Below are positions 4,787 through 63,245 of a stretch of DNA of 64,000 bases, piece by piece; position 1 is the stretch's first letter; each line of letters starts with the position of its first letter. Both the position numbers and the translations under genes were made by a program. The DNA comes from Clostridia bacterium (lineage in GTDB: Bacteria > Bacillota > Clostridia > Christensenellales > CAG-138). The stretch spans positions 14,703 to 78,702 of the forward strand of contig JAFZRT010000007.1 of assembly GCA_017619735.1 (NCBI GenBank). Direction: 5' to 3'. Under the pieces are notes generated by a model. It made no database searches and was not told the DNA's origin. It saw nothing but the letters and a program-made list of their open reading frames with translations.

Positions 4787-4825
4787 AAAAAAAGAGCCGG
4801 TAAGCAATACCGGCTCTTTGTATTT
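4787..4825. terminator. Bidirectional intrinsic terminator between convergent genes
   Basis: A-run, stem AGAGCCGGTA / TACCGGCTCT with a 5-nt loop, then a T-rich tract. Confidence 0.75.
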
Positions 4826-4829
4826 GCGC

Positions 4830-34841: not shown

Positions 34842-37457
34842 ATGAAACGCTCTGCTGCATTGCTGCTGGTATTGCTGCTGCTGTTCGGGATGCTTTCCGG
34901 CTGCAAGGCCAAAACGCCCGATGAGACCGTCCCCACGGATCCACCTAAGGACGAATACACGCTCGAGCCCGAGGAGGGCTGCAACCAGCTGATATTCTAC
35001 TGGTACTCCGACGGCGTCGATTACTCCAAATGCGATATGTGGATATGGTATCCCGACGCCGACGGCAGGGGCTACCTCTTCCATGAATGCGACTACGGCG
35101 CGAAGGTGATCCTGAACGTGCCGGAGGACATCACCGAGGTCGGCTTCATCGTCAGGAAGGACTGCTCCGATCCCGGCGGGACGAGCTGGGGCGACGCCGT
35201 GAAGGATTACGACGGCGACAGATTCGCCGCCATCACGGGCAAGGTCACCGAGGTATACCTCAAGCCCGGCGACGGAGCGCAGTACTTGAGCGACGACGGA
35301 GGCAAAACATTGTATCAGGCAAAGCTCTTCTCTCTGGCGGGCATAGTCGCGCTGGATCAGATCAAATACAACATCACCCCCGCTACGCGGATAACCTCTC
35401 TCGATCAGATAAAGGTCAAGGACGGCGACCGCGAGCTGGAGATAGTCTCCCTTTCGAGCCTTAACAACGAGGTCGTCACCGGCATTATCACCGTGGGCGA
35501 GGAGCTCGACATCTCCAAGACCTACGTCGTGGAGATAGAGGGCTTCGACCCGCAGAACGCCGTGCCCACGCAGGTATTCGACTCCCCGGGCTTCATTGAA
35601 AAATACGCCTACGACGGCGAGCTCGGCGCGTTCGATTTCGTCGACGCCACGCTGTTCAAGTTCTGGGCCCCGACGGCGAGCGACGTCAAGCTCAACCTGT
35701 ATTCCGAGGGCGAAGGCGGCGAAGCGTATGAGACGATCGACATGGTCAGGGGCGAGAAGGGCGTATGGAGCGCCGAATGCCCCGGCAACAGCGGCTTCTA
35801 TTACACCTACACCGTGACGACGGCCGCCGGCACCAACGAGATAGTCGACCCGTACGCGAAGGCGGTCGGCGTGAACGGCAACCGCGGCATGGTCGTCGAC
35901 CTCGACGCCACCGATCCCGAGGGCTGGGCCAACGACAGGTTCTACGACGGCATAGACGCCTATAACGAGGCCGTTATCTGGGAGGTGCACGTCCGCGACT
36001 TCTCCAACAGGATATCCGGATCGCAGTATCCCGGCAAATATCTCGCCTTTACCGAGACCGGCCTCAAGAACGCCTCGGGCGAGCCGGTCGGCATTGATTA
36101 TCTCGTCGATCTCGGCATAACGCACGTGCATCTGCAGCCCGTCTACGACTACGCGACCGTCGACGAATCTTCCGACGAGCCGCAGTTCAACTGGGGCTAC
36201 GATCCCAAGAATTACAACGTGCCCGAGGGCTCCTATTCCACCGACCCCTACCACGGCGAGGTCAGGATCAAGGAGTTCAAGCAGATGGTAAAGGCCCTGC
36301 ATGACGCGGGCATCGGCGTAGTTATGGACGTCGTCTACAACCACACCTACTCCGCGGATTCCAACCTCAGCGCCGCGGTCCCGTATTACTACTACCGCTA
36401 CGACCCCTCCGGCAAGCTCTCCAACGGCTCCGGCTGCGGCAACGAGACGGCCTCCGACCGCGTGATGTTCCGCAAGTTCATGGTGGATTCCGTCAAGTAC
36501 TGGGCGGAGGAATACCATATCGACGGCTTCCGTTTCGACCTGATGGCGCTCCATGACGTGGAGACCATGCAGGCGATAGAGACCGCCGTGCACGAGATCA
36601 ATCCCCGCGCGATAATCTACGGCGAGGGCTGGACCGGCGGCACCACCACGCTCATGGCCAACAAACAGGCGAACCAGGCGAACATCTCCAAGATCGTTCC
36701 CACGGGCGAGGCGATCGGCGCGGTATCCGTGTTCAACGACTCCATAAGGGACGGCCTGAAGGGCAGCGTCTTCAATGCGAAGGACAAGGGCTACATCAAC
36801 GGCAACGCCTCCTCGGGCACCGCGAACCGCGTCATATTCGGCATAATGGGCGGCGTCAAGACCCCCGCCGCGACGTGGAGCGTCGAAAACAACGCGGTCA
36901 TCAACTACATGGCCTGCCACGACAACAACACGCTGTGGGACAAGCTGGAGATCTCCAATCCCGAAGCGTCCGTCGAGGAGCGTATGCTGATGAACCGCCT
37001 CGGCGCTTCGATAATCATGATATCGAAGGGCACTCCGTTCTTCCTCGCGGGGGAGGAGATGCTTAGGACGAAGGACGGCGACCACAACAGCTACAAGTCC
37101 TCCGACGCGATAAACAACATCGATTGGGACGCGCTGACGGAGGGCAGCGACGTGATGCGGATGCGCGATCTCTACCGCTCGCTGATCGCCATGAGGCGCG
37201 CCAACCGCATGTTCACCGAGTGCGACGTCGAATGCAGCGTGCTGGACGGCAGCGCGATAGAGGTCGTGTTCAGCCGAAACGGCGAAACAGTGGGTTACGC
37301 AGTGATCAACCCCAACGCCGAGGCGATGGATCACGCCCTGCCGGAAGGCGAATGGGGCGTGCTGCTCGAGGGCTGGAGCGCTTCGGCCTCCGCCATGAAG
37401 ACCGTGAGCGGCAGCGTCAGCGTCGAGGGCAGATCGGTGCTCGTCGTTATCAAGTGA
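34842..37457 (+). CDS. pulA: Type I pullulanase (GH13) lipoprotein
   Basis: Lipobox LLFGMLSGC. N-terminal CBM-like regions. GH13 motifs DVVYNHT, GFRFDLM and YGEGW, plus the pullulanase-type YNWGYDP-like NWGYDPKNYNVPEGSY. Confidence 0.9.
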   Translation: MKRSAALLLVLLLLFGMLSGCKAKTPDETVPTDPPKDEYTLEPEEGCNQLIFYWYSDGVDYSKCDMWIWYPDADGRGYLFHECDYGAKVILNVPEDITEVGFIVRKDCSDPGGTSWGDAVKDYDGDRFAAITGKVTEVYLKPGDGAQYLSDDGGKTLYQAKLFSLAGIVALDQIKYNITPATRITSLDQIKVKDGDRELEIVSLSSLNNEVVTGIITVGEELDISKTYVVEIEGFDPQNAVPTQVFDSPGFIEKYAYDGELGAFDFVDATLFKFWAPTASDVKLNLYSEGEGGEAYETIDMVRGEKGVWSAECPGNSGFYYTYTVTTAAGTNEIVDPYAKAVGVNGNRGMVVDLDATDPEGWANDRFYDGIDAYNEAVIWEVHVRDFSNRISGSQYPGKYLAFTETGLKNASGEPVGIDYLVDLGITHVHLQPVYDYATVDESSDEPQFNWGYDPKNYNVPEGSYSTDPYHGEVRIKEFKQMVKALHDAGIGVVMDVVYNHTYSADSNLSAAVPYYYYRYDPSGKLSNGSGCGNETASDRVMFRKFMVDSVKYWAEEYHIDGFRFDLMALHDVETMQAIETAVHEINPRAIIYGEGWTGGTTTLMANKQANQANISKIVPTGEAIGAVSVFNDSIRDGLKGSVFNAKDKGYINGNASSGTANRVIFGIMGGVKTPAATWSVENNAVINYMACHDNNTLWDKLEISNPEASVEERMLMNRLGASIIMISKGTPFFLAGEEMLRTKDGDHNSYKSSDAINNIDWDALTEGSDVMRMRDLYRSLIAMRRANRMFTECDVECSVLDGSAIEVVFSRNGETVGYAVINPNAEAMDHALPEGEWGVLLEGWSASASAMKTVSGSVSVEGRSVLVVIK

Positions 37458-37471
37458 CGATCGTGACAATA

Positions 37472-37505
37472 ACCGTCCCCGGGAGCTTCCCGGGGGCGGT
37501 TTTTC
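37472..37505 (+). terminator. Intrinsic terminator after pulA
   Basis: Stem ACCGTCCCCGGGA / TCCCGGGGGCGGT followed by TTTTT. Confidence 0.75.
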
Positions 37506-37541: not shown

Positions 37542-37570
37542 TTTACACGGGGAGGGAAAGAGTGTATAAT
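37542..37570 (+). promoter_or_regulatory. Sigma-A promoter of the GTPase-NYN / ylmH operon
   Basis: TTTACA, 17 nt, TATAAT, with a TGT extended -10 element. Confidence 0.6.
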
Positions 37571-37621
37571 CAGCATGTGCCGGGCGGCGCGAACCGCCCG
37601 AAATGACTGTAAGGGTGAAGC

Positions 37622-40201
37622 ATGGAAAGACTCGTTATCGGCATGCTGGCGCATGTTGACGCCGGCAAGACAACGCTCTCGGAGGCGCTGCTGTATAAAG
37701 CGGGCGCCATTCGGCGGCTCGGAAGGGTGGACCACGGGGACGCCTTTTTGGACGCGCACGAGCTGGAGAGGGAGCGCGGCATAACGATATTCTCCAAACA
37801 GGCCGAAATGGAGCTCCCGGGCAAGCTCGTGACGCTCATGGACACCCCGGGGCACGTGGATTTCGCCGCGGAGGCGGAGCGCGTGCTTCGCGTCATAGAC
37901 TACGCCGTGCTCGTCATAAGCGCGCCGGAGGGGGTGCAGACGCACGCTCTCACGCTGTGGCGGATGCTCGACAGGCGGCGCGTGCCCGTTTTCGTATTCG
38001 TAAACAAGACCGATCTGCCCTGCCCGTCCCGCGGGGCGATAATGGAAAAGCTCCGCACGCGGCTCTTCGACGGCTGCGTGGATATGACGGAGGATCCTGA
38101 AAAGAGGGACGAGGACGTCGCCTCCTTCAGCGAGGGACTAATGGAAAAATACCTGGCGGAGGGGAGGCTGACGGACGACGATATCGCCTTCGCCGTGAGG
38201 AGCAGGCAGATAGCCCCCGTGTATTTCGGCTCCGCGCTGAAGATGCAGGGCGTCGACGCGCTGATGGACGGCCTCGCCAGGTTCACCCGCATGCGCGAAT
38301 ATCCTGCGGAGTTCGGCGCGCGCGTCGTCAAGATAAGCAATTCCGAAGGCGTCCGGCTGACGTTCATGAAGATCACCGGCGGACGGCTCGCCGCCAAACA
38401 GGTGCTGACAAACCGCTCCGCGACCGTCCCGGAGGACGAGGTCTGGAGCGAGAAAGCCGACAGCATACGGCTCTACTCCGGCGCGAGGTTCACCCCCCTG
38501 CAGGAGGCGGAGGCGGGCTCGGTGGTCGCCGTGACGGGCCTCACGCGGACGTATGCCGAGCAGGGCCTCGGCTGCGAGGCGGGGGAGACCGGATCGCAGC
38601 TCGATCCCGTGCTGTCGTATTCGCTCATATTCCCGGAGGGCGTCAACCTTTTCGACGCGTACCGCCGCATTTGCCTCCTCACCGAGGAGGATCCGCAGCT
38701 CAACATAGTCTGGGACGAGCAGGCGGGCGAGATCCGCGCGCAGCTTATGGGCGAGGTCCAGTGCGAGGTGCTGCAGCGCCTCATACGCGAGCGATTCGGC
38801 CTCGACGTGACATTCGGCCCCGGCGCGGTGATGTACCGCGAGACGGTGGAGGAGGGTGCGGACGGCATAGGCCATTTCGAGCCGCTTCGGCATTTCGCGC
38901 ACGTGGAATTGAGGATAGAGCCCGCGCCTCCGGGCAGCGGCATCGAGCTCGGCACGGAGGTACCGCAGAACGAGCTTTCGCGCAGCTGGCAGCGGCTGAT
39001 ACTCACACATCTCGCCGAAAAGCGGCACAGGGGCGTGCTGACCGGCTCCCCGCTTACCGACGTCAGGATAGTGCTGACGGGCGGCAAAGCGCATCTGAAG
39101 CACACGGAGGGCGGCGATTTCCGCAGGGCGACGTACCGCGCCGTCAGGAACGCGCTCATGTTCTGTAAGAACGTGCTGCTCGAACCCTATTACGATTTCC
39201 GGCTCGAGCTGCCGGAGGAGAACGTCGGCCGCGCCATGACGGATATCCGCCGCATGGAGGGCGAGTTCGCCGCTCCGGAGAGCATCGACGGCACTGCGAT
39301 ACTCACGGGCAAGGCGCCCGTGGCGACCATGCGCGATTACGGCAGGACCGTCGCCGCCTACACCCATGGGCACGGCGTGCTGCGGCTCACCCCCGCGGAG
39401 TACCGGCCGTGTCACAACGCCGCGGAGGTCATAGCCGAAAAGGGCTACGATCCCGAAGCGGATCTCAAAAACACGCCCGATTCGGTATTCTGCGCGGGCG
39501 GTGCGGGATTCACCGTCAAATGGTACGAGGTCGCCTCCTACATGAAGCGCAGCTCGGGCGGCGCGGGCGAAAAGATGCCGACCAAAAAGCCCGCCCCCCG
39601 CGACGAGGAGGCCGAGCTCATGGCGATATTCGAGCGCACTTACGGCGCGGTCAGGAGCGGCTCGCTCCTCCCGGTCAAAAAGAAGGAGCAGCCCGCCGCG
39701 GAGCCGACCGCCGAGAGGGGGGACGAATACCTCCTCATCGACGGCTACAACGTCATATTCTCATGGGACAGCCTGAAGCTCATAGCGCAGGAGAGCATCG
39801 ACTCCGCGCGGGAGGCGCTGATCCGCATGATGATCAACTTCGCCTCGGGCAGGGACGCCGCGGTGATACTCGTTTTCGACGCGTACAAGGTCACGGGCGG
39901 CGTCGAAAGGGTCGACCGGGTCGGAGGCGTCTATATAGTCTACACGCGTGAGAGCGAGATCGCCGACGTGTTCATAGAACGCGCCGTGCAGAAGCTCTCC
40001 GGCACGAAACGGAGCATCAGGGTCGTCACGTCCGACGGCATGGAACAGCTTATCGTAATGGGCAGGGGAGCGCTGCGCGTTCCCGCGCCGGCCTTCGAAA
40101 AGGAGGTACAGCTTGCCGACGAAAGACTGAAGGACGTCATGCACAGGCTCGAATCGGAGGGAAGGACGGTGCTGCATCTATGGCAGAAGATGATACCCTG
40201 A
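37622..40201 (+). CDS. TetM/EF-G-like translational GTPase fused to a C-terminal Rae1/YacP-type NYN ribonuclease domain
   Basis: G motifs AHVDAGKTT, RGITI, DTPGH and NKTD, with colinearity to TetM through domains II-V (residues about 1-640). A K/P/E-rich linker follows. Residues about 702-859 match B. subtilis YacP motif by motif: LLIDGYNVIFSW, VILVFDAY, ESEIADVFIE, RVVTSDGMEQ, GRGALR. Confidence 0.85.
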   Translation: MERLVIGMLAHVDAGKTTLSEALLYKAGAIRRLGRVDHGDAFLDAHELERERGITIFSKQAEMELPGKLVTLMDTPGHVDFAAEAERVLRVIDYAVLVISAPEGVQTHALTLWRMLDRRRVPVFVFVNKTDLPCPSRGAIMEKLRTRLFDGCVDMTEDPEKRDEDVASFSEGLMEKYLAEGRLTDDDIAFAVRSRQIAPVYFGSALKMQGVDALMDGLARFTRMREYPAEFGARVVKISNSEGVRLTFMKITGGRLAAKQVLTNRSATVPEDEVWSEKADSIRLYSGARFTPLQEAEAGSVVAVTGLTRTYAEQGLGCEAGETGSQLDPVLSYSLIFPEGVNLFDAYRRICLLTEEDPQLNIVWDEQAGEIRAQLMGEVQCEVLQRLIRERFGLDVTFGPGAVMYRETVEEGADGIGHFEPLRHFAHVELRIEPAPPGSGIELGTEVPQNELSRSWQRLILTHLAEKRHRGVLTGSPLTDVRIVLTGGKAHLKHTEGGDFRRATYRAVRNALMFCKNVLLEPYYDFRLELPEENVGRAMTDIRRMEGEFAAPESIDGTAILTGKAPVATMRDYGRTVAAYTHGHGVLRLTPAEYRPCHNAAEVIAEKGYDPEADLKNTPDSVFCAGGAGFTVKWYEVASYMKRSSGGAGEKMPTKKPAPRDEEAELMAIFERTYGAVRSGSLLPVKKKEQPAAEPTAERGDEYLLIDGYNVIFSWDSLKLIAQESIDSAREALIRMMINFASGRDAAVILVFDAYKVTGGVERVDRVGGVYIVYTRESEIADVFIERAVQKLSGTKRSIRVVTSDGMEQLIVMGRGALRVPAPAFEKEVQLADERLKDVMHRLESEGRTVLHLWQKMIP

Positions 40202-40920
40202 AACTGAGAAAGCGCTTTGAGGAGCTCAGCACGCGCGCGGAGCGCACGGGCGTCCGCGAGGAGACCAAGTTCCTCAACATGGCGGAGCAGTCCGTGCTTT
40301 TGAGCATGCCTGTCAGCGCGGAGCTGTACGGCGGTTACGAAGGCGCGGAAAGGCGCATAGCCGTGTTCGGCTGCGGGGACGCCGCGGAGCCGGAGTATCG
40401 GCCGCCCATAGTCTGCGTAAGGATAAGGCCCGCCTCGAAAAGGTTCGCCGACGAGCTCACACACAGGGATTTCCTGGGCTCGCTCATGGCTCTCGGCATA
40501 ACGCGGGAGGTGCTCGGCGATATCATAGTTCGGGACGGCGAGGGCTGGCTTTTCTGCCTCTCGCCGATAGCCCCGTTCATTATCGAGAACCTGCGGGAGG
40601 TCAAGCGCACGCAGGTCAGATGCGAGGAAGCCCCTCCGCCCGAGACGGCGGAGGATCGCGGCGAGACGCGCAGCATAGTGATCGCCTCCGAGCGGCTCGA
40701 CGCTGTGATAGCCGCCGTGTACCGCCTCCCCCGTGAGGAGGCCAAGGCGCTCTGCGAAAAGGGCCTCGTTTACATCAACGCGAAGCTCGCCGAAAAGGGC
40801 GGCGCGGCCATTCCCGAAAACGCCGTGGTGTCCGTCCGCGGCAGGGGCAGGTTCCGCTTTTCGGGAGCCGACCGCACAACGAGGAAGGGGCGCATCCGCG
40901 CGAACGTGACGATCTATTGA
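40180..40920 (+). CDS. ylmH: YlmH-like S4-domain RNA-binding protein
   Basis: Colinear with B. subtilis YlmH: GGYEGAERRIAVF vs GGYDRAERKRAILF, HRDFLGSLMALGITREVLGDI vs HRSLLGALMGIGLKRQKFGDI, and a C-terminal S4 region (RLDAVIAAVYRLPREEAKALCEKGLVYIN). It overlaps the upstream gene by 22 nt. Confidence 0.85.
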   Translation: MAEDDTLKLRKRFEELSTRAERTGVREETKFLNMAEQSVLLSMPVSAELYGGYEGAERRIAVFGCGDAAEPEYRPPIVCVRIRPASKRFADELTHRDFLGSLMALGITREVLGDIIVRDGEGWLFCLSPIAPFIIENLREVKRTQVRCEEAPPPETAEDRGETRSIVIASERLDAVIAAVYRLPREEAKALCEKGLVYINAKLAEKGGAAIPENAVVSVRGRGRFRFSGADRTTRKGRIRANVTIY

Positions 40921-40985
40921 TACGGCCCGGCAAAAAGGCGGCTAACGCCCTTTATTGCCGCACGGTATCGTGGTATAATGGAAGC

Positions 40986-41561
40986 ATGAAGAAAAGAGAA
41001 GACGAAAACCTTTCCAACGACAGGATCAGATCCCTTGCGATGCACGGGGTATTCCTCGCGGTGATAGCGATGCTGACGCTGTTCGCGTCGGTGCCTCTGC
41101 CCGCCGGCACGGGGGGAGCGTACATCAACGCGGGCGACGCGGCGATATACGCCGCGGCTTACGTGCTCGGCCCCGTGGGCGGCGCGGTCACCGCCGCATT
41201 GGGCTCCGCGCTCGCGGACGTGCTGCACGGCGCAATGATCTACGCGCCCGTCACGCTCGTAATAAAGGGGCTGATGGGCCTTATCGCGGGCCTTCTGTTC
41301 AAGCGGCTGAGGCACGGCGCCCTGCCCGTCGCCGGGCTCGTGATGCCCGCCGGGTATTTCCTCTTCGAATACCTGCTCTACGGAAGGGGCACTGCGCTAT
41401 TCGGCCTGTGGACCAACGCGATACAGTACGTTTTCGGCGTGGTCGCCGGCATCCTGCTGATAACCGCGCTCGGAAAGACGCGCGCCGTTCAGCCGGCCGC
41501 CGCTCCGCATGAAGGCGGGAACTTCAACGAAAAATCCGATGAGGAGGATCTTAAGGAATAA
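40986..41561 (+). CDS. ECF transporter S component (RibU/DUF1393-like)
   Basis: Start at the ATG at 40986, downstream of a TGGTATAAT extended -10 element. YINAGDAAIYAAAYVLGPVGGAVTAALGSALADVL and TLVIKGLMGLIAG match the PF07155-type signature as I recall it. Confidence 0.7.
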   Translation: MKKREDENLSNDRIRSLAMHGVFLAVIAMLTLFASVPLPAGTGGAYINAGDAAIYAAAYVLGPVGGAVTAALGSALADVLHGAMIYAPVTLVIKGLMGLIAGLLFKRLRHGALPVAGLVMPAGYFLFEYLLYGRGTALFGLWTNAIQYVFGVVAGILLITALGKTRAVQPAAAPHEGGNFNEKSDEEDLKE

Positions 41562-42922
41562 TGGAGCTTTGGCAATTCATAGTACTGCTTGCCGCCGTAG
41601 TGCTTCTGGGAGGCGGCGCGATACTCGCGATAATCCTCACGAAGCGCAGGGACGGCGCGTTAGGCGACCTGCTGATAACCTACAAGAACGACAGCGAAAG
41701 GAGCATCGACCGCGCGCGCAAGGACATCTCCGAGGATATGGAACAGCAGCTCCGCTTCCTCGGCGAGAACATGCGCATCATGCAGACCGGCCAGTCCGAA
41801 CAGCTCGCGAGCAGGCAGGAGGCGTTCTTCGGCCTCATGACGGAGAAGCAGTCCGCGATCAGCAGCAGTCTTGAGACGAGCGCGAAGAATACCGAGGACC
41901 GCTTCCGCACGTTCGAGAGCAAGAACGCCGCGGACCTGAACGAGATCCGCGAGACGGTCGAACGCCGCCTTTCGGCCATGCAGTCGGAGAACGACAAGCA
42001 TCTGGACGACGTCCGCGACACCATGAAGAAGAGCCTCGACGAGGTCAGGGGCGTGGTCGACGAAAAGCTGCAGGAGACCCTTAACAAGCGCATCACCGAG
42101 AGCTTCCGCATGGTCAACGACCGCCTTTCGGAGGTCTATCAGGGCCTGGGCGAGATGAAGAATCTCGCCGTGGGCGTGGGCGACCTCAAAAAGGTGCTGT
42201 CGAACGTCAAGACGCGCGGCACCCTCGGCGAGGTGCAGCTCGGCGCGATACTGGAGGAGATACTGACCCCGGATCAGTACGTCAAAAACTTCGACGCGAA
42301 GCAGAAGAGCCAGGAGCGCGTGGAATACGCCGTGCGCCTCCCCGGCGAGGGCGACGCTCCGGTGTATCTGCCCATCGACTCCAAGTTCCCCTCCGACGCC
42401 TACGTCCAGCTGCTCGACGCGTACGACGCGGCCGATCCCAATCTCGTGGCGTCCGCGCAGAGGCGGCTCTGCGACGTAATAATGAAGTTCGCCCGCGACA
42501 TAAGGGACAAGTACATAGATCCCCCGAGGACCACGGAGTTCGCGATAATGTTCCTTCCCACGGAGGGCATATATGCGGAGGTAGTGCGCCTCGGCATGGT
42601 CGAACGCCTCCAGCGCGAGGCGAGGGTCAATATCGCCGGCCCCTCGACGATGGCGGCGCTTCTGAACTCCCTGCGCATGGGCTTCTCCATAGTCGCGATG
42701 CAGCAGCGCTCGGGCGAGGCGTGGCAGGTGCTCGGCGCGGTCAAGGCGGAGTTCATGAACTTCGAAAAGGTGCTCACCACCGCCCAGAGCCGCATTTCGA
42801 GCGCCAACGACGAGCTTGAAAAGCTGATAGGCACCCGCACCCGCGCCATATTGAGAAAGCTGCGGGACGTGGAATCCCTCCCCGCGGAGAACGCGGCGCA
42901 GCTGAACGACGCGGCGGAATGA
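41561..42922 (+). CDS. rmuC: DNA recombination protein RmuC
   Basis: N-terminal TM helix, long coiled coil, then the RmuC nuclease-like core (EFAIMFLPTEGIYAE, NIAGPSTMAALL). The start overlaps the upstream stop (TAATG). Confidence 0.88.
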   Translation: MELWQFIVLLAAVVLLGGGAILAIILTKRRDGALGDLLITYKNDSERSIDRARKDISEDMEQQLRFLGENMRIMQTGQSEQLASRQEAFFGLMTEKQSAISSSLETSAKNTEDRFRTFESKNAADLNEIRETVERRLSAMQSENDKHLDDVRDTMKKSLDEVRGVVDEKLQETLNKRITESFRMVNDRLSEVYQGLGEMKNLAVGVGDLKKVLSNVKTRGTLGEVQLGAILEEILTPDQYVKNFDAKQKSQERVEYAVRLPGEGDAPVYLPIDSKFPSDAYVQLLDAYDAADPNLVASAQRRLCDVIMKFARDIRDKYIDPPRTTEFAIMFLPTEGIYAEVVRLGMVERLQREARVNIAGPSTMAALLNSLRMGFSIVAMQQRSGEAWQVLGAVKAEFMNFEKVLTTAQSRISSANDELEKLIGTRTRAILRKLRDVESLPAENAAQLNDAAE

Positions 42923-42931: not shown

Positions 42932-42970
42932 AAAAAAGACCGTTCCCCATCGGGAACGGTCTTTTGTTTT
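42932..42970. terminator. Bidirectional intrinsic terminator (rmuC / mtaD)
   Basis: A-run, stem GACCGTTCCC / GGGAACGGTC with loop CATC, then TTTTGTTTT. Confidence 0.85.
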
Positions 42971-42974: not shown

Positions 42975-44270
42975 TCATCTGTTCAGCACTATCGGCACGG
43001 CGTATTCCTCGACGTCTCTCACCGCCTTTTCGATATCGAGAGTCAGCCATTCGCCGTCCCTGTACAGCACGCGGCCGCGCACCATAGTCATACATACGTC
43101 CGAGCCGTGCGCGGAGTAGACGACCGCGGCAACGGGGTCGTATATCGGCCGCAGATGCGGCGAGTTGGAGTCGATCATGATTAGGTCCGCGTCGAGCCCG
43201 ATCTCTATCCTTCCGGTCTCGTCGGCGCGGCCCTGAGCGCGGGCGCCGTTCACCGTCGCCATCTTCAGCGCCTCGTAAGCGGGGAGCGCGGTCGGATCCA
43301 GCGCTTCCGCCTTCGCGACGAGCGCCGCGAGCTTAATTTCCTCAAAGAGGTCGAGCGAGTTGTTGGAGCAGGCGCCGTCCGTGCCGAGGCATACGTTTAT
43401 GCCCGCGCGGATCATCGCCGCGGTGTCGGCGGAGCCGCTGCCGAGCTTCATGTTGGAAACGGGGCAGTGCGCGACGGATACGCCGTTGTTCGCGAGCACG
43501 GCCATATCGTCCTCCTCGAGCCAGACGCCGTGCGCTGCGAGCACGGGGGTATCGAAAATCCCGTTCGCCTCAAAGGCGCGCGCCGCGCTCATGCCGTGGC
43601 GGGTCTTCGCCTCCTCATGCTCCGAAAGCGTCTCCGAAAGGTGGATATGCGTTATCACGCCGTATTCCTTCGCCCATTCGTGCACTCGCCTCCAGACGGC
43701 GGGGGGAGAGGTGTACTCCGCGTGAATGGAGACGTCCGCGCGTATGCTGCCGGAGGCGCCGTACTTCGAAAGGAGCTCGGCAGTCTCCCTTACGGCGCGG
43801 TCGTTCTCGAAAACGTAGCCGTCGCCCAGCGCGATCACCGCGTTGCACAGGTTCGCCTTCATGCCGATCTTTTCCGCGGCCTTCGCGACGGCGGGCTGGC
43901 AGAAGTACATGTCGGAGAACGAGACCGTCCCCGTGCGCAGCATCTCCGCCATGCCGAGCGTCGCTCCCGCGACTATCGCCCGCTCGTCAAGGCGCGCCTC
44001 GACGGGGAACACCTTGTCGTAGAGCCAGCTCTTCAGCGGGTAGTCGTCGGCGTATCCGCGCATTATGCACATCGCCGTGTGCGCGTGCGCGTTGATAAGG
44101 CCGGGCATCACGATACGGCCCCCGGCGTCTATCACCTCGCGGGCTTCGGGCGTCTCATGGCCGATATAGACGATCTTGCCGCCTTCGACGCCGATCGAGC
44201 AGTTGTCGATGACGTCGCCGGCGTCCGTCATGGGGATCGCCAATGCGTTTTTTATCAGTGTGTCGAGCAT
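42975..44270 (-). CDS. mtaD: Amidohydrolase, 5'-methylthioadenosine/S-adenosylhomocysteine deaminase-like
   Basis: Start set at the ATG at 44270; the ORF-track start at 44285 is a TTG inside punA. Motifs GLINAHAHTAM, HLSET, AHGVWL and GTDGACSNN fit the MtaD/guanine-deaminase-type amidohydrolases. Confidence 0.8.
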   Translation of the reverse strand: MLDTLIKNALAIPMTDAGDVIDNCSIGVEGGKIVYIGHETPEAREVIDAGGRIVMPGLINAHAHTAMCIMRGYADDYPLKSWLYDKVFPVEARLDERAIVAGATLGMAEMLRTGTVSFSDMYFCQPAVAKAAEKIGMKANLCNAVIALGDGYVFENDRAVRETAELLSKYGASGSIRADVSIHAEYTSPPAVWRRVHEWAKEYGVITHIHLSETLSEHEEAKTRHGMSAARAFEANGIFDTPVLAAHGVWLEEDDMAVLANNGVSVAHCPVSNMKLGSGSADTAAMIRAGINVCLGTDGACSNNSLDLFEEIKLAALVAKAEALDPTALPAYEALKMATVNGARAQGRADETGRIEIGLDADLIMIDSNSPHLRPIYDPVAAVVYSAHGSDVCMTMVRGRVLYRDGEWLTLDIEKAVRDVEEYAVPIVLNR

Positions 44271-44271
44271 A

Positions 44272-45093
44272 TCACAGTCTCTCAAGGAACTCGGTCACGT
44301 AGGAGGAGAGCCGGTTCGAAGCGGCGTTGCCCGCCTCTATGACCTCCTCGCCGGAGAGGGGCTTGTCCAGTATCCCGGCGGCCATGTTGGTAACGAGGGT
44401 GATGCCGAGTATCCTCATGCCGCAGTGCCTTGCGGCTATGCACTCGGGCACGGTGCTCATGCCGACGGCGTCCGCGCCGAGCAGACGCATCGCGCGGATC
44501 TCGGCCGGGGTCTCGTATTGCGGGCCGGTGCAGTAGAAGTACACGCCCTCGTGGATATTCTCGCCGTGCGACTCTGCGATCTCGCGGAAGAGGGCCATGT
44601 AGTCGCGGTCGAATACGCGGCTCATGTCGGGGAAGCGCGGGCCGAATTCATCGATATTGGGCCCGATGAGCGGATTAACGGCGTTGAGCTTGATAAAGTC
44701 GTTTATCAGCATGAGCTCGCCCGGCTTGAAGCCGGTGTTTATCCCGCCCGCGGCGTTGGTCACTATCAGCTTTTCGATGCCCATGAGCCGTGCCAAGCGG
44801 ATGGGGAAAACGGCGTCCTCGGCAGCCCAGCCCTCGTAAAAATGGAGGCGGCCCTGCATCATCAGCACGTTCTTCCCTCCGAGCACCCCCGCGAGGAAGC
44901 GGCCCTTGTGGCCGGGCGCGGTCGAATACTTCATGTGCGGTATCTCGCTGTAGGGAACGGCGATGGGATCGTCGAGCCTGGAGCCGAGATCGCCCAGGCC
45001 GGAGCCCAGTATTATCAGCACCTCGGGGCAGAACTCGCCCAGCTTCCTGCAAAGCGTCTTTGCGCTTTCGACGTAATCCTCGTACTTAAGCAT
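44272..45093 (-). CDS. punA: Purine nucleoside phosphorylase (trimeric PNP/MTAP family)
   Basis: ILGSGLG, MMQGRLHFYEG, GPQYETPAE, GADAVGMSTVPE and VTNMAAG motifs. Confidence 0.88.
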   Translation of the reverse strand: MLKYEDYVESAKTLCRKLGEFCPEVLIILGSGLGDLGSRLDDPIAVPYSEIPHMKYSTAPGHKGRFLAGVLGGKNVLMMQGRLHFYEGWAAEDAVFPIRLARLMGIEKLIVTNAAGGINTGFKPGELMLINDFIKLNAVNPLIGPNIDEFGPRFPDMSRVFDRDYMALFREIAESHGENIHEGVYFYCTGPQYETPAEIRAMRLLGADAVGMSTVPECIAARHCGMRILGITLVTNMAAGILDKPLSGEEVIEAGNAASNRLSSYVTEFLERL

Positions 45094-46162
45094 CTTTGTT
45101 CTCCGTCCTTGCTTTTTTTCTTTGGAATGCTTTATTGAAGTTCTCCTCGAAGGGGGCCGTCACGATCCCCTCCTCGGTGACTATACCGGTTATCAGACGG
45201 TGGTCGACGACGTCGAAAGCGGGGTTGTAGACCTTTATGCCCTCGGGCGCCATGCGCTTCTCGAAATAGAGCTCGGTTATCTCGTTCGGGTCGCGCTCCT
45301 CGATCCTTATGTCCTTTCCGCTCGCGGCGCCCATGTCGACGGTCGAGAGCGGCGCGAACATGTAGAAGGGTATCCCGTAGTGGTCGGCAAGCACGGCGAG
45401 CGACGATGAGCCGATCTTGTTCGCCGCGTCGCCGCAGCGGGAGGCGCGGTCGCAGCCGATGAACACCGCGCTGATCCGGCCTTCCTTCATGACCTGACCC
45501 GCCATATTGTCGCAGATGAGGGTCACGTCGACGCCCGCGTTATGCAGTTCGAACGCGGTGAGGCGGGCCCCCTGCAGGAGCGGCCTCGTCTCGTCGGCGA
45601 AGACCTTTATGTCCATGCCGCGCTCCTTGGCAAGGAGTATCGGCCCGAGCGCGGTGCCGTAGCGGCTCGTTGCGAGAGGCCCCGCGTTGCAGTGGGTCAG
45701 CACGCAGTCCCCGTCCTTTATCAGCGACAGCCCGTATTCGCTTATCCGCAGATTGGATGCGATATCCTCCTCGTGTATGGCTTTCGCCTCGGCGAAAAGG
45801 CGCTCGACTATCTCCTCACGCGGGAGCAGAGCGTTTTTGCGCAGGGTCTGGCGCATCCTTTCGAGCGCCCAGAAGAGGTTGACGGCCGTCGGACGGGAGG
45901 AGGCGAGGTACCTCTCCGCGTCGTCCATGCGGCGGAAGAAATCGGGCTCTTCCATATCCTCCTTCGCGCAGAGACAATAGCCGTACGCCGCGGCGATGCC
46001 TATCGCGGGCGCGCCGCGCACGCGGAGCCGGCTTATCGCCTCGAAAAGCTCCTCACGCGAGCGCAGCTCAATATACTCGAGCTCGCCGGGGAGCTTCGTC
46101 TGGTCGATTATCACGAGCGAATCGCCCGACTCGCTCAATCTTATGTTGGTAAGTTCTTCCAT
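45086..46162 (-). CDS. mtnA: S-methyl-5-thioribose-1-phosphate isomerase
   Basis: IIDQTKLPGELEYIEL, VRGAPAIGIAAAYG, TRPLLQGARLTAFEL, GCDR..CGDAANKIG and NPAFDV motifs of the eIF-2B/MtnA family. Confidence 0.9.
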   Translation of the reverse strand: MEELTNIRLSESGDSLVIIDQTKLPGELEYIELRSREELFEAISRLRVRGAPAIGIAAAYGYCLCAKEDMEEPDFFRRMDDAERYLASSRPTAVNLFWALERMRQTLRKNALLPREEIVERLFAEAKAIHEEDIASNLRISEYGLSLIKDGDCVLTHCNAGPLATSRYGTALGPILLAKERGMDIKVFADETRPLLQGARLTAFELHNAGVDVTLICDNMAGQVMKEGRISAVFIGCDRASRCGDAANKIGSSSLAVLADHYGIPFYMFAPLSTVDMGAASGKDIRIEERDPNEITELYFEKRMAPEGIKVYNPAFDVVDHRLITGIVTEEGIVTAPFEENFNKAFQRKKARTENKDA

Positions 46163-46166
46163 TTTT

Positions 46167-46490
46167 TCACAGTATGAATTGCAGAAGGAGCAGCAGCAGC
46201 ACTCCGGGTATCCCGAGGAACCCCGCGACGAGCGAGGTCGCCCATGTGATGGGGATCTTGAAGAAGGTCATTTTGAGATACGTTACGAAGACTATGTCGA
46301 AAAGGCAGAGCATGCCCGCTCCTATAATCCCGTTTATGAGTATCTTCCAAAGGATCTTCGAAGTGACTCCGAGCAGCTTGAAAAACAGGAACGTCAGCGC
46401 GAGCACCGCGCAGACGACGATCAGCGGTATGTACTCGCTTATCTGTATGTTCAGCGTTTCGGAGACGGCGGAGGCAAAATCCGTGCTCAT
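46167..46490 (-). CDS. bofA: Pro-sigmaK processing inhibitor BofA-like membrane protein
   Basis: Small protein with 2-3 TM helices (NGIIGAGMLCLFDIV ... LVAGFLGIPGVLLLLL). It lies directly downstream of a yaaL-like gene, as in the B. subtilis recR-yaaL-bofA arrangement. Confidence 0.7.
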   Translation of the reverse strand: MSTDFASAVSETLNIQISEYIPLIVVCAVLALTFLFFKLLGVTSKILWKILINGIIGAGMLCLFDIVFVTYLKMTFFKIPITWATSLVAGFLGIPGVLLLLLLQFIL

Positions 46491-46517
46491 TGCGATCCAA
46501 TCCTTTCTTTTAAGGGA

Positions 46518-46706
46518 TCATTCTTCCTCCCGCAGGCAGCCGAATCTTCGCCTCGCGGCTTCCAGCTGCATTGCGGCGTATTCCGTTTCGGCGCGGCTCT
46601 CCGCGCCGTCAAAGAGCTTTTCACTGCGCATCCATTGAAGGAGCGCCGAGCGGAGCCCGTTATCTTCCGCCCTTTCGGCGGGTCTCGCTTTGGCCTTGTT
46701 TTTCAC
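46518..46706 (-). CDS. YaaL-like DUF2508 small protein
   Basis: GTG start at 46706 with a GGAGGG RBS 9 nt upstream. The 62-aa helical protein ends ...ETEYAAMQLEAARRRFGCLREEE, similar to the DUF2508 C-terminus. It pairs with bofA. Confidence 0.5.
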   Translation of the reverse strand: MKNKAKARPAERAEDNGLRSALLQWMRSEKLFDGAESRAETEYAAMQLEAARRRFGCLREEE

Positions 46707-46759
46707 TGCAATATCACCCTCCTCGCGGTCACTGATAATTATTGCAGCTTGAAGGCCTT

Positions 46760-47503
46760 TTATTCCGACAGCGCCGCGGCTCCGCCCGAATAAGTCAAAA
46801 TGCTCGTCCCGGCGACCTCGGGGAATACATGCATATCGCCGTCGGGAGCGTCCTTCGCGGCGAATCGCTCGTAACGCAGCCCGTCGGGCGCGATCTCGGC
46901 GCAGCCCAGCATGCCGCCGCGCTCGACCCGCATAACGTACCCCGATTCCGTAAGGGCGACGGTCATTATGATCGTTTCGCCGTCCGCGGTATAGGCGCAT
47001 TTTAAGTCGGTGCCGGAGGTCAGAGTGCCGACGAGCTCGTCCCCGTTATCGAACGCGTATGAGAAGGAGTTCATATGCCGCAGCTGTCCGCTGCCCGCGT
47101 ACGCGCCCGTGAAAGTGCCGGAGAAGGTCGATCTGCCCTCGTCCTGCGTGAGCATGCCGACCGTGACGAAGAGCCTCGATACGAGCGCCTCGTCCCCGGC
47201 GAGCGCGGCGTAGAGCCCGGTCAGCTCCGCGTCCCCGCTCATGAAAACGGAATCGAGCAGCCCCGCCGACGCCCTGCCGTATTCCGAAATGAATCCGGTA
47301 AGGAATATGAAGACGGGATTGGTCTTCTCCGTCGGGAGCGGCTCGTCGGTCGGAGACAATGTCGGCTCGAGCAGCGGGGCGTCGGTCGTCTTCGTGCCGG
47401 CGTCCTTTATCGCGCCGCTTATCCTCGCGCAGCCGGAAAGCATGCAGGCGGCCGCCGCGAGCAGGGCGATGAAGCAGTATGCTTTTTTTGCCTTGCTCCT
47501 CAT
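46760..47503 (-). CDS. Putative lipoprotein, function unknown
   Basis: Lipobox signal CFIALLAAAACMLSGC. 4-nt overlap with the ahcY stop. Confidence 0.6.
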   Translation of the reverse strand: MRSKAKKAYCFIALLAAAACMLSGCARISGAIKDAGTKTTDAPLLEPTLSPTDEPLPTEKTNPVFIFLTGFISEYGRASAGLLDSVFMSGDAELTGLYAALAGDEALVSRLFVTVGMLTQDEGRSTFSGTFTGAYAGSGQLRHMNSFSYAFDNGDELVGTLTSGTDLKCAYTADGETIIMTVALTESGYVMRVERGGMLGCAEIAPDGLRYERFAAKDAPDGDMHVFPEVAGTSILTYSGGAAALSE

Positions 47504-49070: not shown

Positions 49071-49086
49071 CAAAGAGTGCTTTATG

Positions 49087-49123
49087 CCTCCTTCCCATGT
49101 CGTATGAATGTGGCGGAAGGAGG
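49087..49123 (+). promoter_or_regulatory. SD-sequestering hairpin (riboswitch expression platform)
   Basis: CCTCCTTCC (49087-49095) is the exact reverse complement of GGAAGGAGG (49115-49123). The latter is the SD, 7 nt before the ATG at 49131. Confidence 0.7.
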
Positions 49124-49130
49124 TTTTATT

Positions 49131-63163: not shown

Positions 63164-63245
63164 GCCCGATTTTATCGAAAAAAGCCGAATACCGCCGGAT
63201 TGCGAGCATAGGATCGATATCAGATGAATGAGAGGAGCAGGCGGA

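What the first reader, a model, noticed from the sequence alone, without database searches (positions are those of the whole stretch)
37542..40920. TetM/EF-G-like GTPase covalently fused to a Rae1/YacP NYN RNase, with its stop overlapping ylmH: candidate ribosome-surveillance operon
Seen in the sequence: one uninterrupted 859-codon frame. Residues about 1-640 carry translational-GTPase motifs (AHVDAGKTT, RGITI, DTPGH, NKTD) and run colinear with TetM/TetO through domains II-V. A ~60-aa K/P/E-rich linker follows. Residues about 702-859 match B. subtilis YacP/Rae1 block by block: LLIDGYNVIFSW vs LLVDGYNMIGAW, VILVFDAY vs VIVVFDAH, ESEIADVFIE vs ENETADERIE, RVVTSDGMEQ vs HVATSDYTEQ, GRGALR vs GQGALR. 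The next gene overlaps by 22 nt and is a clear YlmH homologue. The pair has its own promoter (37542-37570), follows a strong terminator, and is separated from the next gene by a promoter-like element. Established knowledge: Rae1 is an A-site, translation-dependent endoribonuclease. TetM-type and EF-G-type factors occupy the ribosomal factor site and reach toward the A site. YlmH has been implicated in ribosome-associated quality control in B. subtilis. Inference: the fusion would deliver the NYN nuclease to the A site under GTPase control, and YlmH would then handle the products. I know of no experimental work on this architecture.
Basis: partly seen in the sequence, partly recalled or inferred. 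Interest (0 to 1): 0.85.

Follow-up and report, generated by a model that had tools for sequence, protein, structure and literature searches.

The report
EF-G-like GTPase fused to Rae1 nuclease
A real 859-residue gene joins a ribosome-docking GTPase to an mRNA-cutting enzyme; it belongs to a large, untested family of gut and rumen Clostridia that probably clears stalled ribosomes and is wrongly labelled a tetracycline-resistance gene.

Summary
Window 37622-40201 (+) is one 859-codon ORF. It has a complete EF-G-type five-domain translational GTPase at aa 1-600. A conserved ~45-aa mini-domain and a ~58-aa flexible linker follow. The C-terminus is a YacP/Rae1 NYN nuclease domain (PF05991, E 4e-41) with all four catalytic acidic residues. 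A YlmH homologue overlaps its 3' end by 22 nt.

The fusion is not an artefact. At least 143 cluster representatives at 50% identity share the architecture and keep both catalytic centres.

Three points of the interpretation need correcting.
- The architecture was already noted computationally in 2015 and 2017. I found no experimental work.
- The GTPase is not a Tet protein. It scores 368 against a cut-off of 775, lacks the Tet domain-IV YSPxSTP loop, and is as far from TetM as from EF-G.
- The premise that Rae1 cuts in the A site was revised in 2025. Rae1 cuts 12 nt upstream of the A-site codon, at the tail of stalled or collided ribosomes.

The ylmH link is a conserved two-gene module only in the query's clade (about 55-100% identity). 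About 28 other loci lack it.

Best reading: a self-targeting Rae1 for rescue of stalled ribosomes. The function is inferred, not shown.

The parts
37471..37501 (+). Intrinsic terminator of the upstream pullulanase-type gene. It isolates the unit from upstream transcription.
   Evidence: Stem of 14 pairs (10 G-C), loop of 3, T-rich tail. The upstream gene, 34842-37457, carries Alpha-amylase, CBM_48 and PUD domains.
37542..37570 (+). Sigma-70-type promoter TTTACA-17 nt-TATAAT.
   Evidence: Matches 11 of 12 positions. It is the best of 3 sites in the region, against 1.1 expected from shuffles.
37622..40201 (+). Fusion gene of 859 aa: EF-G/Tet-like translational GTPase, C-terminal mini-domain, linker, Rae1-type NYN nuclease.
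   Evidence: ORF. Pfam domains. GC3 of 0.84, typical of real genes in this window. More than 140 homologous fusions.
37631..38281 (+). G domain, aa 4-220. Motifs: G1 AHVDAGKTT, G2 RGITI, G3 DTPGH (catalytic His78), G4 NKTD.
   Evidence: GTP_EFTU E 7.6e-47. The motifs are invariant or nearly so in 150 family representatives; His78 is kept in 150 of 151 rows.
38825..39160 (+). EF-G domain IV, aa 402-513. The family-specific tip motif AHLKHTEGGDF is aa 490-500 (nt 39089-39121).
   Evidence: EFG_IV E 3.4e-17. H491, K493, H494, T495, E496, G497, G498, D499 and F500 are invariant in alignment A1. The motif replaces YYSPVSTPADF of TetM, FFSPASTPADF of TetB(P) and SYHDVDSNENAF of EF-G.
39173..39421 (+). 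EF-G domain V, aa 518-600.
   Evidence: EFG_C E 6.4e-17.
39422..39550 (+). Conserved C-terminal mini-domain, aa 601-643: helix, beta-hairpin, helix. Consensus GYDPE.D..NTPDSVFC.HGAG..V.W.EV. Cys597 and Cys624 are invariant in the 37-sequence alignment A1. No match in Pfam or PDB.
   Evidence: Conservation. Secondary structure in the AlphaFold2 model: H600-607, E621-625, E628-632, H634-643. No PDB sequence hit. Unfused family members end just after this segment.
39551..39724 (+). Flexible K/E/P-rich linker, aa 644-701. It holds one conserved helix, aa 662-674 (nt 39605-39643), with the motif EL..IFERTYG.
   Evidence: pLDDT below 50 at aa 645-662 and 678-699, with a helix at 662-674. L666, I669, T673, Y674 and G675 are invariant in A1. 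Linker length in the family is 42-192 aa, median 86.
39731..40156 (+). NYN_YacP (Rae1-type) endoribonuclease domain, aa 704-845. Acidic catalytic residues: D707, D753, D782, D805.
   Evidence: PF05991 E 4.1e-41. Aligns to B. subtilis Rae1 5MQ8/5MQ9, E 3.7e-23. The model's best PDB match is Rae1, E 8e-12, TM 0.77. The four Asp are kept in 141-143 of 143 fused representatives.
40180..40920 (+). ylmH homologue of 246 aa. Its start lies 22 nt inside the end of the fusion gene, which suggests translational coupling.
   Evidence: YlmH_RBD E 3e-14 and S4 E 1e-4. Aligns to B. subtilis YlmH 8S1P, E 6e-19. The same overlapping arrangement is found in L001-L003, L011, L100, L101 and L103.
40971..40979 (+). 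Extended -10 element TGgTATAAT ahead of the ECF-S gene (ATG at 40986). It is a possible internal promoter, so the next two genes may be transcribed separately.
   Evidence: Read directly from the sequence. The promoter scan did not call it.
40986..42922 (+). Downstream genes without an intervening terminator: an ECF riboflavin-type S component (to 41561) and rmuC (41561-42922). They are probably not functionally part of the module.
   Evidence: Pfam ECF-ribofla_trS E 1e-27 and RmuC E 7e-67. These neighbours recur only in the closest relatives, L001-L003.
42934..42965 (.). Bidirectional intrinsic terminator that ends the co-directional gene run.
   Evidence: 14-pair stem called on both strands.

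Best explanation
The gene encodes a self-targeting Rae1. Its EF-G-type GTPase module, in the GTP form, docks in the ribosomal factor-binding site and puts its conserved domain-IV tip into or near a vacant A site. This tethers a catalytically competent Rae1-type NYN endoribonuclease on a flexible leash of 42-192 residues. Elongating ribosomes rarely leave the factor site open for long. Stalled or collided ribosomes do, so they are preferentially occupied. The tethered nuclease then cuts the mRNA at the ribosome's edge: at the entry channel of the bound ribosome, which in a collided pair is the tail end of the leading ribosome, where free Rae1 cuts. GTP hydrolysis at the sarcin-ricin loop releases the factor. 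The truncated mRNA sends upstream ribosomes to rescue by tmRNA, or by subunit splitting and RqcH-dependent alanine tailing. In the query's clade, the co-translated YlmH would serve that second route by holding peptidyl-tRNA on the 50S subunit.

Shown here by computation: an intact GTPase, an EF-G fold, an intact NYN active site homologous to Rae1, a disordered linker, family-wide purifying conservation of both centres, and an overlapping ylmH conserved as a module in one clade.

Inferred: ribosome binding, mRNA as the substrate, preference for stalled ribosomes, the position of the cut, and the hand-over to YlmH.
For: Domain architecture and scores.

Fold:
- EF-G-type fold with a confident model, mean pLDDT 78.6.
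- The best PDB structural matches are ribosome-bound EF-G.

Conservation:
- G1-G4 and catalytic His78 are conserved in about 150 representatives.
- NYN Asp707, 753, 782 and 805 are conserved in 141-143 of 143.
- The NYN domain is homologous to the experimentally characterised Rae1 by sequence (E 3.7e-23) and by structure (TM 0.77).
- The domain-IV tip H.KHTEGGDF is invariant in A1 and kept with small changes in more distant members, which argues that A-site insertion is functional.

Linker: disordered and variable in length.

Known Rae1 biology: cleavage is translation-dependent, falls 12 nt upstream of the A-site codon of stalled ribosomes (PMC12407103), and feeds tmRNA rescue of collisions (PMC13622287).

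Known YlmH biology: an RqcP-like RQC factor on 50S-peptidyl-tRNA (PMC11317155; PDB 8S1P match).

ylmH linkage:
- ylmH overlaps the fusion gene by 22-31 nt in 7 loci whose flanking genes differ.
- ylmH is the only recurrent neighbour in 33 loci.

Genomic setting: core chromosome with no mobile-element signals.
Against: - There is no experimental evidence for any step.
- ylmH is absent within about 6 kb in about 28 of about 35 sampled fusion loci, so any YlmH hand-over cannot be intrinsic to the family.
- Unfused members of the same GTPase family exist, so the GTPase module has a function without a covalently attached nuclease.
- I could not test whether fusion-bearing genomes also keep a stand-alone rae1. 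Replacement and addition therefore remain open.
- The geometry (which ribosome of a collided pair is bound, and where the NYN domain reaches) is reasoning from known EF-G and Tet ribosome structures, not a docking result.
- The substrate could be rRNA or tRNA rather than mRNA.
Confidence: 0.5

Rival explanations
1. It is a tetracycline ribosomal protection protein with an accessory RNase. The GTPase dislodges tetracycline as TetM/TetO do, and the NYN domain adds to or modifies resistance. Atkinson suggested this in 2015.
For: - The best NCBIfam model is tet_protect, 368 bits.
- NCBI annotation names relatives 'TetM/TetW/TetO/TetS family tetracycline resistance ribosomal protection protein'.
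- Atkinson classed them in the Tet subfamily (PMC4342817).
Against: - The score is less than half the curated cut-off (368 against 775), and the specific Tet models are further below theirs.
- Identity is 28-30% to TetM, TetO and TetB(P), and 26.5% to EF-G, so there is no real preference. The PDB sequence search even ranks EF-G above TetM.
- The Tet domain-IV loop III motif (Y/F)(Y/F)SPxSTP, which contacts the tetracycline site, is replaced by a different motif, H.KHTEGGDF, invariant among close relatives.
- The Tet C-terminal helix is replaced by a 45-aa mini-domain.
- The gene sits in core chromosomal context in several Clostridia orders. No mobile elements and no tet leader peptide were seen.
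Confidence: 0.08
2. It is a ribosome-targeting nuclease. The GTPase docks on the ribosome and the NYN domain cuts rRNA or tRNA rather than mRNA. The purpose could be to inactivate or dismantle ribosomes during starvation or sporulation, or to check or process rRNA late in assembly.
For: - The tether holds the nuclease next to rRNA-rich surfaces and A/P-site tRNA (inference from the EF-G-like fold).
- YacP was first predicted to act in rRNA/tRNA maturation from its operon with mrnC and rlmB (PMC5499597; B. subtilis locus).
- Atkinson proposed rRNA RNase activity.
- Some relatives lie near sporulation genes: spoIVA in L011/L101 and cotJ in Monoglobus.
Against: - The only characterised member of the NYN_YacP family cleaves mRNA.
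- Fusion loci show no recurrent linkage to rRNA-processing or assembly genes.
- The one recurrent neighbour, ylmH, points to rescue of stalled translation.
- The sporulation neighbours are not conserved.
Confidence: 0.15
3. The GTPase is the primary effector and acts as a ribosome-splitting or remodelling factor, like EF-G with RRF or like HflX. It turns a stalled 70S into a 50S subunit carrying peptidyl-tRNA, and YlmH then captures it. The NYN domain is an add-on that destroys the offending mRNA and is dispensable in some lineages.
For: - Unfused members with the same domain-IV motif and mini-domain exist and cluster together in a rough tree.
- YlmH acts on 50S-peptidyl-tRNA complexes, the product of splitting rather than of cleavage (PMC11317155).
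- The catalytic His and all G motifs are conserved, as expected of a working motor.
Against: - 143 of 150 representatives keep the NYN domain with an intact active site, so the nuclease is under strong selection.
- Nothing in the sequence separates splitting from simple docking.
- Bacillota already have MutS2/RqcU for splitting.
Confidence: 0.17
4. The fusion is an assembly or frameshift artefact that joins two separate genes.
For: Two low-coverage metagenome contigs, L035 (coverage 1.3) and L039 (coverage 4.5), show the GTPase and NYN parts as separate adjacent ORFs.
Against: - Hundreds of independent assemblies, including cultured isolates (Agathobacter rectalis, Monoglobus pectinilyticus, Lentihominibacter hominis), encode the single ORF.
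- The linker carries an in-frame conserved helix motif.
- The window ORF has uniform coding GC3.
Confidence: 0.01

Closest known systems
Rae1/YacP of Bacillus subtilis (ribosome-associated endoribonuclease 1; PDB 5MQ8/5MQ9)
   Same: - Homologous NYN_YacP domain, about 35-40% identity, E 3.7e-23.
- The same four acidic catalytic residues.
- The same fold, TM 0.77.
- The expected activity is therefore metal-dependent endonucleolytic cleavage of RNA in a ribosome context.
   Different: - Rae1 is a free 170-aa protein that finds stalled or collided ribosomes on its own. It lies in the cysS-mrnC-rlmB-rae1-sigH cluster.
- Here the domain is the C-terminus of an 859-aa GTPase, in a different genomic context.
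- Ribosome targeting is presumably supplied by the GTPase and gated by GTP.
Tet(M)/Tet(O)/TetB(P) ribosomal protection proteins
   Same: - Colinear five-domain EF-G-like architecture with a short G' region.
- Highest-scoring NCBIfam profile.
- Presumably binds the same factor site with domain IV toward the A site.
   Different: - 28-30% identity only.
- Below all curated cut-offs.
- The domain-IV loop III YSPxSTP motif is absent.
- The C-terminal helix is replaced by a conserved mini-domain plus linker plus nuclease.
- Chromosomal and apparently not mobile.
EF-G (fusA) and EF-G paralogues (EF-G2, LepA, BipA)
   Same: - Best structural matches.
- G motifs and catalytic His.
- Domains III, IV and V are recognised by the EF-G Pfam models.
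   Different: - 26-30% identity, with TIGR00484 at 259 bits against a cut-off of 659.
- A different domain-IV tip.
- An extra C-terminal module.
Eukaryotic no-go decay: Hbs1-Dom34 (translational GTPase plus A-site probe) with the nucleases Cue2/NONU-1. Bacterial SmrB. Comparison made from my own knowledge of these systems and from PMC13622287.
   Same: The same logic of a stall sensor combined with an endonuclease that cuts mRNA at or between stalled ribosomes, to open the way for rescue.
   Different: - The proteins are unrelated: an SMR nuclease rather than NYN, and an eEF1A-type GTPase rather than an EF-G-type one.
- The components are separate polypeptides.
- Here sensor and nuclease are one chain.
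YlmH/RqcP S4-domain RQC factors of B. subtilis
   Same: The downstream gene has the YlmH N-terminal, central RNA-binding and S4 domains, and aligns over residues 35-250 of B. subtilis YlmH.
   Different: It is not in the ylm/dcw cluster. In this clade it is translationally coupled to the GTPase-nuclease gene.

Membership tests
Tet ribosomal protection proteins (TetM/O/W/S/Q, TetB(P), OtrA) | Scores at or above the curated NCBIfam cut-off for tet_protect (NF012153) or a specific Tet model. | tested here: not met
   NF012153 scores 368 bits against a cut-off of 775. tet_protect_M_W scores 227 against 1100. Otr(A) scores 291 against 900.
Tet ribosomal protection proteins (TetM/O/W/S/Q, TetB(P), OtrA) | Domain-IV loop III motif (Y/F)(Y/F)SPxSTP, which reaches the tetracycline site. 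| tested here: not met
   In an alignment with real TetM and TetB(P) sequences, the window protein has AHLKHTEGGDF where TetM has YYSPVSTPADF and TetB(P) has FFSPASTPADF. The replacement motif is invariant in the close-relative alignment A1 and kept with small changes in more distant members.
Tet ribosomal protection proteins (TetM/O/W/S/Q, TetB(P), OtrA) | Confers tetracycline resistance. | not testable with these tools
   This needs an MIC assay.
Translational GTPase superfamily, EF2/EF-G family | G1-G5 motifs with catalytic His, and the domain order G-II-III-IV-V. | tested here: met
   Pfam GTP_EFTU, EFG_III, EFG_IV and EFG_C. Motif conservation. Foldseek top hits are EF-G, E 1e-48.
EF-G proper (fusA) | Scores at or above the curated cut-off of the EF-G equivalog models. 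| tested here: not met
   TIGR00484 scores 259 against 659. NF009381 scores 281 against 583.
NYN_YacP / Rae1 endoribonucleases | PF05991 match above the gathering score. | tested here: met
   141.2 bits against 24.6, E 4.1e-41, covering profile positions 1-143 of 166.
NYN_YacP / Rae1 endoribonucleases | Conserved acidic active-site residues of the PIN-like fold. | tested here: met
   D707, D753, D782 and D805 align with the DGYN, FDA, ETAD and TSD motifs of B. subtilis Rae1. They are kept in 141-143 of 143 fused representatives.
NYN_YacP / Rae1 endoribonucleases | Rae1 three-dimensional fold. | tested here: met
   The AlphaFold2 model of aa 590-859 has 5MQ9_A as best PDB hit, E 8.4e-12, TM 0.77 (normalised by target length), 35% identity.
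NYN_YacP / Rae1 endoribonucleases | Stand-alone protein of about 170 aa in the cysS-mrnC-rlmB-rae1-sigH neighbourhood (Bacillota). | tested here: not met
   Here it is the C-terminal domain of an 859-aa protein. No mrnC or rlmB homologue was found in the window; the only sigH-like hit is a weak sigma-factor match at 63228-63947. The B. subtilis reference locus is.
NYN_YacP / Rae1 endoribonucleases | Translation-dependent cleavage of mRNA at stalled ribosomes. | not testable with these tools
   This needs biochemical or genetic assays.
YlmH (S4-domain RQC factor) | YlmH_RBD central domain plus a C-terminal S4 domain, with full-length homology to B. subtilis YlmH. | tested here: met
   PF17774 scores 53.5 bits against 23. 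S4 scores 22.3 bits, just under its 22.8 cut-off. phmmer to 8S1P chain V gives E 6e-19 over residues 35-250.
YlmH (S4-domain RQC factor) | Location in the ylm operon downstream of the dcw cluster. | tested here: not met
   The neighbours are the fusion gene, an ECF-S component and rmuC. Published work notes that the ylm context varies between taxa.

The most novel reading that the evidence does not exclude
This family would be the first translational GTPase that carries its own catalytic effector. It would be a GTP-gated, factor-site-docking endonuclease that recognises stalled or collided ribosomes through an EF-G-like probe with a unique domain-IV tip. It would cut the mRNA at the ribosome boundary, in one polypeptide doing what Hbs1/Dom34 plus Cue2, or SmrB, or free Rae1 do elsewhere. 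In many Clostridia it could be the main or only Rae1 activity. In one clade it forms a dedicated cut-and-tail operon with YlmH.
Probability: 0.4. Interest if true: 0.8.

Novelty: new variant of a known kind. Interest (0 to 1): 0.62.

Why it matters
Rae1 has only recently been recognised as the Gram-positive nuclease that opens collided ribosomes to tmRNA rescue. How it finds its ribosome is unresolved. A natural fusion to a factor-site GTPase acts as a Rosetta stone: it says the nuclease works from the factor-binding side of a ribosome. It also offers a stable, GTP-trappable complex for cryo-EM.

The family is large. It has at least 143 fused representatives at 50% clustering, and abundant human-gut species such as Agathobacter rectalis carry it.

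There is also a practical side. Public annotation calls these genes TetM/TetW/TetO/TetS-type tetracycline resistance determinants. The sequence evidence here does not support that name, and it may inflate resistance-gene counts in gut and rumen metagenomes.

The conserved overlap with ylmH in one clade gives a testable genetic link between mRNA cleavage and alanine-tailing quality control.

Tried and rejected
- **Assembly artefact.** Rejected by comparative data.
- **Membership in Tet RPPs.** Rejected on HMM cut-offs and the loop motif.
- **Anti-phage defence role.** No PADLOC hit for either protein.
- **RNA leader, riboswitch or attenuator.** No Rfam match between 36500 and 43500 at E <= 0.1.
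- **Link to the trans-translation locus.** No tmRNA gene in the window or in 40 related loci. RNase R follows one unfused homologue, in L041 only.
- **Second copies in the window.** No second copy of the NYN domain, ylmH or the GTPase.
- **rae1 neighbourhood in the window.** No mrnC or rlmB homologue.
- **Identity of the mini-domain and linker, aa 590-703.**
  - No PDB sequence hit.
  - When folded without the GTPase, the mini-domain is low-confidence and finds no structural match.
- **Does a fusion-bearing genome also keep a stand-alone rae1?** I could not settle this.
  - The plasmid collection holds only fragments of the relevant genomes. Monoglobus and Agathobacter each show only the fused copy there, which is not conclusive.
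- **Literature.** Searches for experimental work on the fusion, or for a YlmH-Rae1 connection, found only the two comparative-genomics mentions.

Full report
**1. Observation**

The window carries an uninterrupted 859-codon ORF at 37622-40201 (+). A 246-codon ORF at 40180-40920 starts 22 nt before the first one ends.

Pfam finds these domains in the long ORF:

| Domain | Residues | E-value |
|---|---|---|
| GTP_EFTU | 4-220 | 7.6e-47 |
| EFG_III | 353-399 | 1e-06 |
| EFG_IV | 402-513 | 3.4e-17 |
| EFG_C | 518-600 | 6.4e-17 |
| NYN_YacP | 704-845 | 4.1e-41 |

The second ORF has YlmH_RBD plus S4. It aligns to B. subtilis YlmH (PDB 8S1P) over residues 35-250, E 6e-19.

The transcription signals are as follows.
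- An 11-of-12 sigma-70 promoter lies at 37542-37570. It follows a strong terminator at 37471-37501.
- After ylmH there is an extended -10 (TGgTATAAT, 40971-40979) ahead of the ATG at 40986 of an ECF-S component gene.
- No terminator occurs until 42934-42965, after rmuC. Read-through into those two genes is therefore possible.

**2. The fusion is real**

- A search of 5.8 billion proteins returned more than 120 full-length relatives of 852-944 aa at 52-75% identity, all carrying PF05991.
- An exhaustive scan of 1.84 billion representatives at 50% clustering returned 150 hits, the list limit, at 39-52% identity. Of these, 143 carry both modules.
- Cultured carriers include Lentihominibacter hominis, Monoglobus pectinilyticus and Agathobacter rectalis (933 aa).
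- Named relatives are Oscillibacter, Oscillospiraceae, Lachnospiraceae and unclassified Clostridia from rumen and gut.

**3. Anatomy and conservation**

*GTPase centre.* Across 150 representatives, the G1-G4 motifs and the catalytic His78 are essentially invariant.

*Nuclease centre.* The four acidic residues D707, D753, D782 and D805 are kept in 141-143 of 143 fused proteins.

*Model.* The AlphaFold2 model has a mean pLDDT of 78.6. It shows:
- an EF-G-like five-domain body;
- a small helix-hairpin-helix mini-domain at aa 600-643;
- a disordered linker at aa 644-701 interrupted by one helix at aa 662-674;
- a separate NYN domain.

Foldseek matches the whole model to ribosome-bound EF-G, E about 1e-48. 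It matches the C-terminal part to Rae1, E 8e-12, TM 0.77.

*Features that mark this family.*
- The mini-domain has the consensus GYDPE.D..NTPDSVFC.HGAG..V.W.EV. Cys597 and Cys624 are invariant in the 37-sequence alignment A1.
- The linker helix carries the motif EL..IFERTYG.
- Neither segment has a Pfam or PDB match.
- Linker length varies from 42 to 192 residues.

**4. It is not a Tet protein**

- The best NCBIfam profile is tet_protect, but at 368 bits against a cut-off of 775. EF-G models are also far below their cut-offs.
- tblastn identity is 29.7% to TetB(P), 28.3% to TetM, about 28% to TetO and 26.5% to an EF-G. The PDB sequence search ranks EF-G slightly above TetM.
- I aligned the protein with real TetM, TetB(P) and EF-G sequences fetched from annotated plasmids. 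The Tet loop III motif YYSPVSTPADF/FFSPASTPADF is replaced by AHLKHTEGGDF. That motif is invariant among the close relatives and kept with small changes in more distant members.
- In a rough neighbour-joining tree the family falls apart from TetM and TetB(P).
- The genomic context is core chromosome: glmS, pgi, ftsW, serine biosynthesis, methionine salvage and dockerin proteins. I saw no mobile-element genes and no tet leader.

The NCBI name 'TetM/TetW/TetO/TetS family tetracycline resistance ribosomal protection protein', given to relatives, is therefore probably an over-annotation.

**5. Linkage to ylmH**

*Arrangement A: ylmH overlapping, directly downstream.*

| Locus | Identity of the fusion protein to the window protein |
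|---|---|
| L001-L003 | 68-81% |
| L011/L012 | 57% |
| L100 | 59% |
| L101 | 55-56% |
| L103 | 69% |

- The overlap is 22-31 nt in the loci whose gene coordinates I compared.
- The genes flanking the pair differ between these loci: pullulanase and ECF-S in the window; TRAP transporter and MFS in L100; flavorubredoxin and spoIVA in L011/L101; AlkZ and a C1 peptidase in L103.
- The pair has thus been kept together while its surroundings changed.

*Arrangement B.* In L005 (Lentihominibacter hominis) and L008, ylmH lies about 3.5 kb upstream on the other strand, with a radical-SAM gene between.

*No ylmH within about 6 kb.* This holds for about 28 other loci. They include the Oscillibacter-type L013, Monoglobus L014, A. 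rectalis L099, L102 and 20 or so gut-metagenome contigs.

Clustering all neighbouring ORFs showed ylmH to be the only recurrent neighbour. The link is therefore non-random but clade-specific. It cannot define the family's function.

**6. Unfused members**

L036 (641 aa), L040 and L041 (668 aa) encode the same GTPase, with the KHTEGGDF-type tip and the mini-domain, and stop right after the mini-domain. Several such sequences cluster together in the rough tree, which suggests secondary loss of the nuclease. In L041 the next gene is RNase R. That is a single observation.

**7. What is already known**

- Matelska et al. [quoted passage not shown]
- I found no experimental study and no mention of the ylmH operon.
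- Knowledge of the parts has moved on.
  - Rae1 is proposed to cut mRNA on collided ribosomes to feed trans-translation (PMC13622287).
  - YlmH is an RqcP-like factor acting with RqcH on 50S-peptidyl-tRNA (PMC11317155).

**8. Mechanism**

I commit to the following, at about 0.5 confidence.
- The GTPase module docks in the factor site of a ribosome whose A site stays accessible.
- The conserved domain-IV tip probes the decoding region.
- The leash lets the NYN domain reach mRNA at the nearby entry channel. In a collided pair, that point is the tail of the leading ribosome, where free Rae1 cuts.
- GTP hydrolysis releases the factor.
- The truncated mRNA leads to rescue by tmRNA or by RQC. In the query's clade, YlmH is made together with the fusion protein for the RQC branch.

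Only the competence of the parts and their conservation are shown. Ribosome binding, the substrate, the position of the cut and the hand-over are inferred. The geometric argument rests on published EF-G and Tet ribosome structures that I recalled, not on docking.

Rivals:

| Rival | Confidence |
|---|---|
| A splitting or remodelling GTPase with the nuclease as an accessory | 0.17 |
| An rRNA- or tRNA-directed nuclease | 0.15 |
| Tetracycline protection | 0.08 |
| Assembly artefact | 0.01 |

**9. Verdict**

- The finding is real and well described.
- Its interpretation is partly right.
- The architecture is not a new discovery, but it is experimentally untouched.
- The ylmH module and the clear separation from Tet proteins appear to be new observations.
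- I rate it a new variant of a known kind (a Rae1-type ribosome-associated nuclease with a built-in translational GTPase), interest 0.62.

Noticed in passing
L099 6622-9423 (Agathobacter rectalis, WP_306784676.1); relatives P0004, P0008, P0035, P0089: NCBI annotation names members of this family 'TetM/TetW/TetO/TetS family tetracycline resistance ribosomal protection protein'. The window protein scores less than half the tet_protect cut-off and lacks the Tet loop motif. This is probably an over-annotation, and it could inflate tet-gene counts in gut and rumen resistome surveys.
   Followed up: partly
L036 6001-7926; L040 61-1941; L041 1504-3510: Unfused members of the same GTPase family end directly after the conserved mini-domain and have no NYN domain. 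Several cluster together in a rough tree, which suggests secondary loss. In L041 the next gene, 3652-5844, is RNase R.
   Followed up: partly
window 39407-39550 (aa 596-643): The conserved mini-domain after EF-G domain V has two cysteines, C597 and C624, invariant in the 37-sequence alignment A1, and usually two histidines (CH...FC.HGAG). It may be a metal site. The window protein has Gly where most relatives have the second His. No Pfam or PDB match.
   Followed up: partly
window 39605-39643 (aa 662-674): A short conserved helix, EL..IFERTYG, sits in the middle of the otherwise disordered and variable linker. Its partner (ribosome, NYN domain or YlmH) is unknown.
   Followed up: no
L005 3398-4222 (-) and 7793-10471 (+); L008 2261-3028 (-) and 6301-8271 (+): A second, looser fusion-ylmH arrangement. 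ylmH lies about 3.5 kb upstream on the opposite strand, with a B12-binding radical-SAM/DUF4080 gene in between. Seen in Lentihominibacter hominis and one uncultured Firmicute.
   Followed up: partly
window 49077-50990 (+): A 637-aa protein joins an ECF-transporter S component (aa 34-198) to Mur-ligase middle and C-terminal domains of the FolC/folylpolyglutamate-synthase type. This is a transporter-enzyme fusion.
   Followed up: no
window 23104-25737 (+) and 60910-63123 (+): A subtilase and a CotH-kinase-like protein each end in a type I dockerin domain. This suggests a cellulosome-bearing Clostridia chromosome (GC 60.4%). The closest relatives of the fusion gene are rumen MAGs.
   Followed up: no
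window 42975-48741 (-): A run of genes for SAH/MTA metabolism: an amidohydrolase (MTA/SAH-deaminase-like), a PNP_UDP_1 phosphorylase, an IF-2B family protein (MtnA-like isomerase) and an S-adenosylhomocysteine hydrolase.
   Followed up: no
window 40917-42922 (+): An ECF riboflavin-type S component and rmuC follow ylmH with no terminator. rmuC starts on the last base of the preceding gene's stop codon. Only the closest relatives, L001-L003, share this.
   Followed up: partly
L035 1142-3855; L039 6688-8671: The GTPase and NYN parts appear as separate adjacent ORFs in two very low-coverage metagenome contigs (coverage 1.3 and 4.5). These are most likely sequencing frameshifts rather than genuinely split genes.
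   Followed up: no
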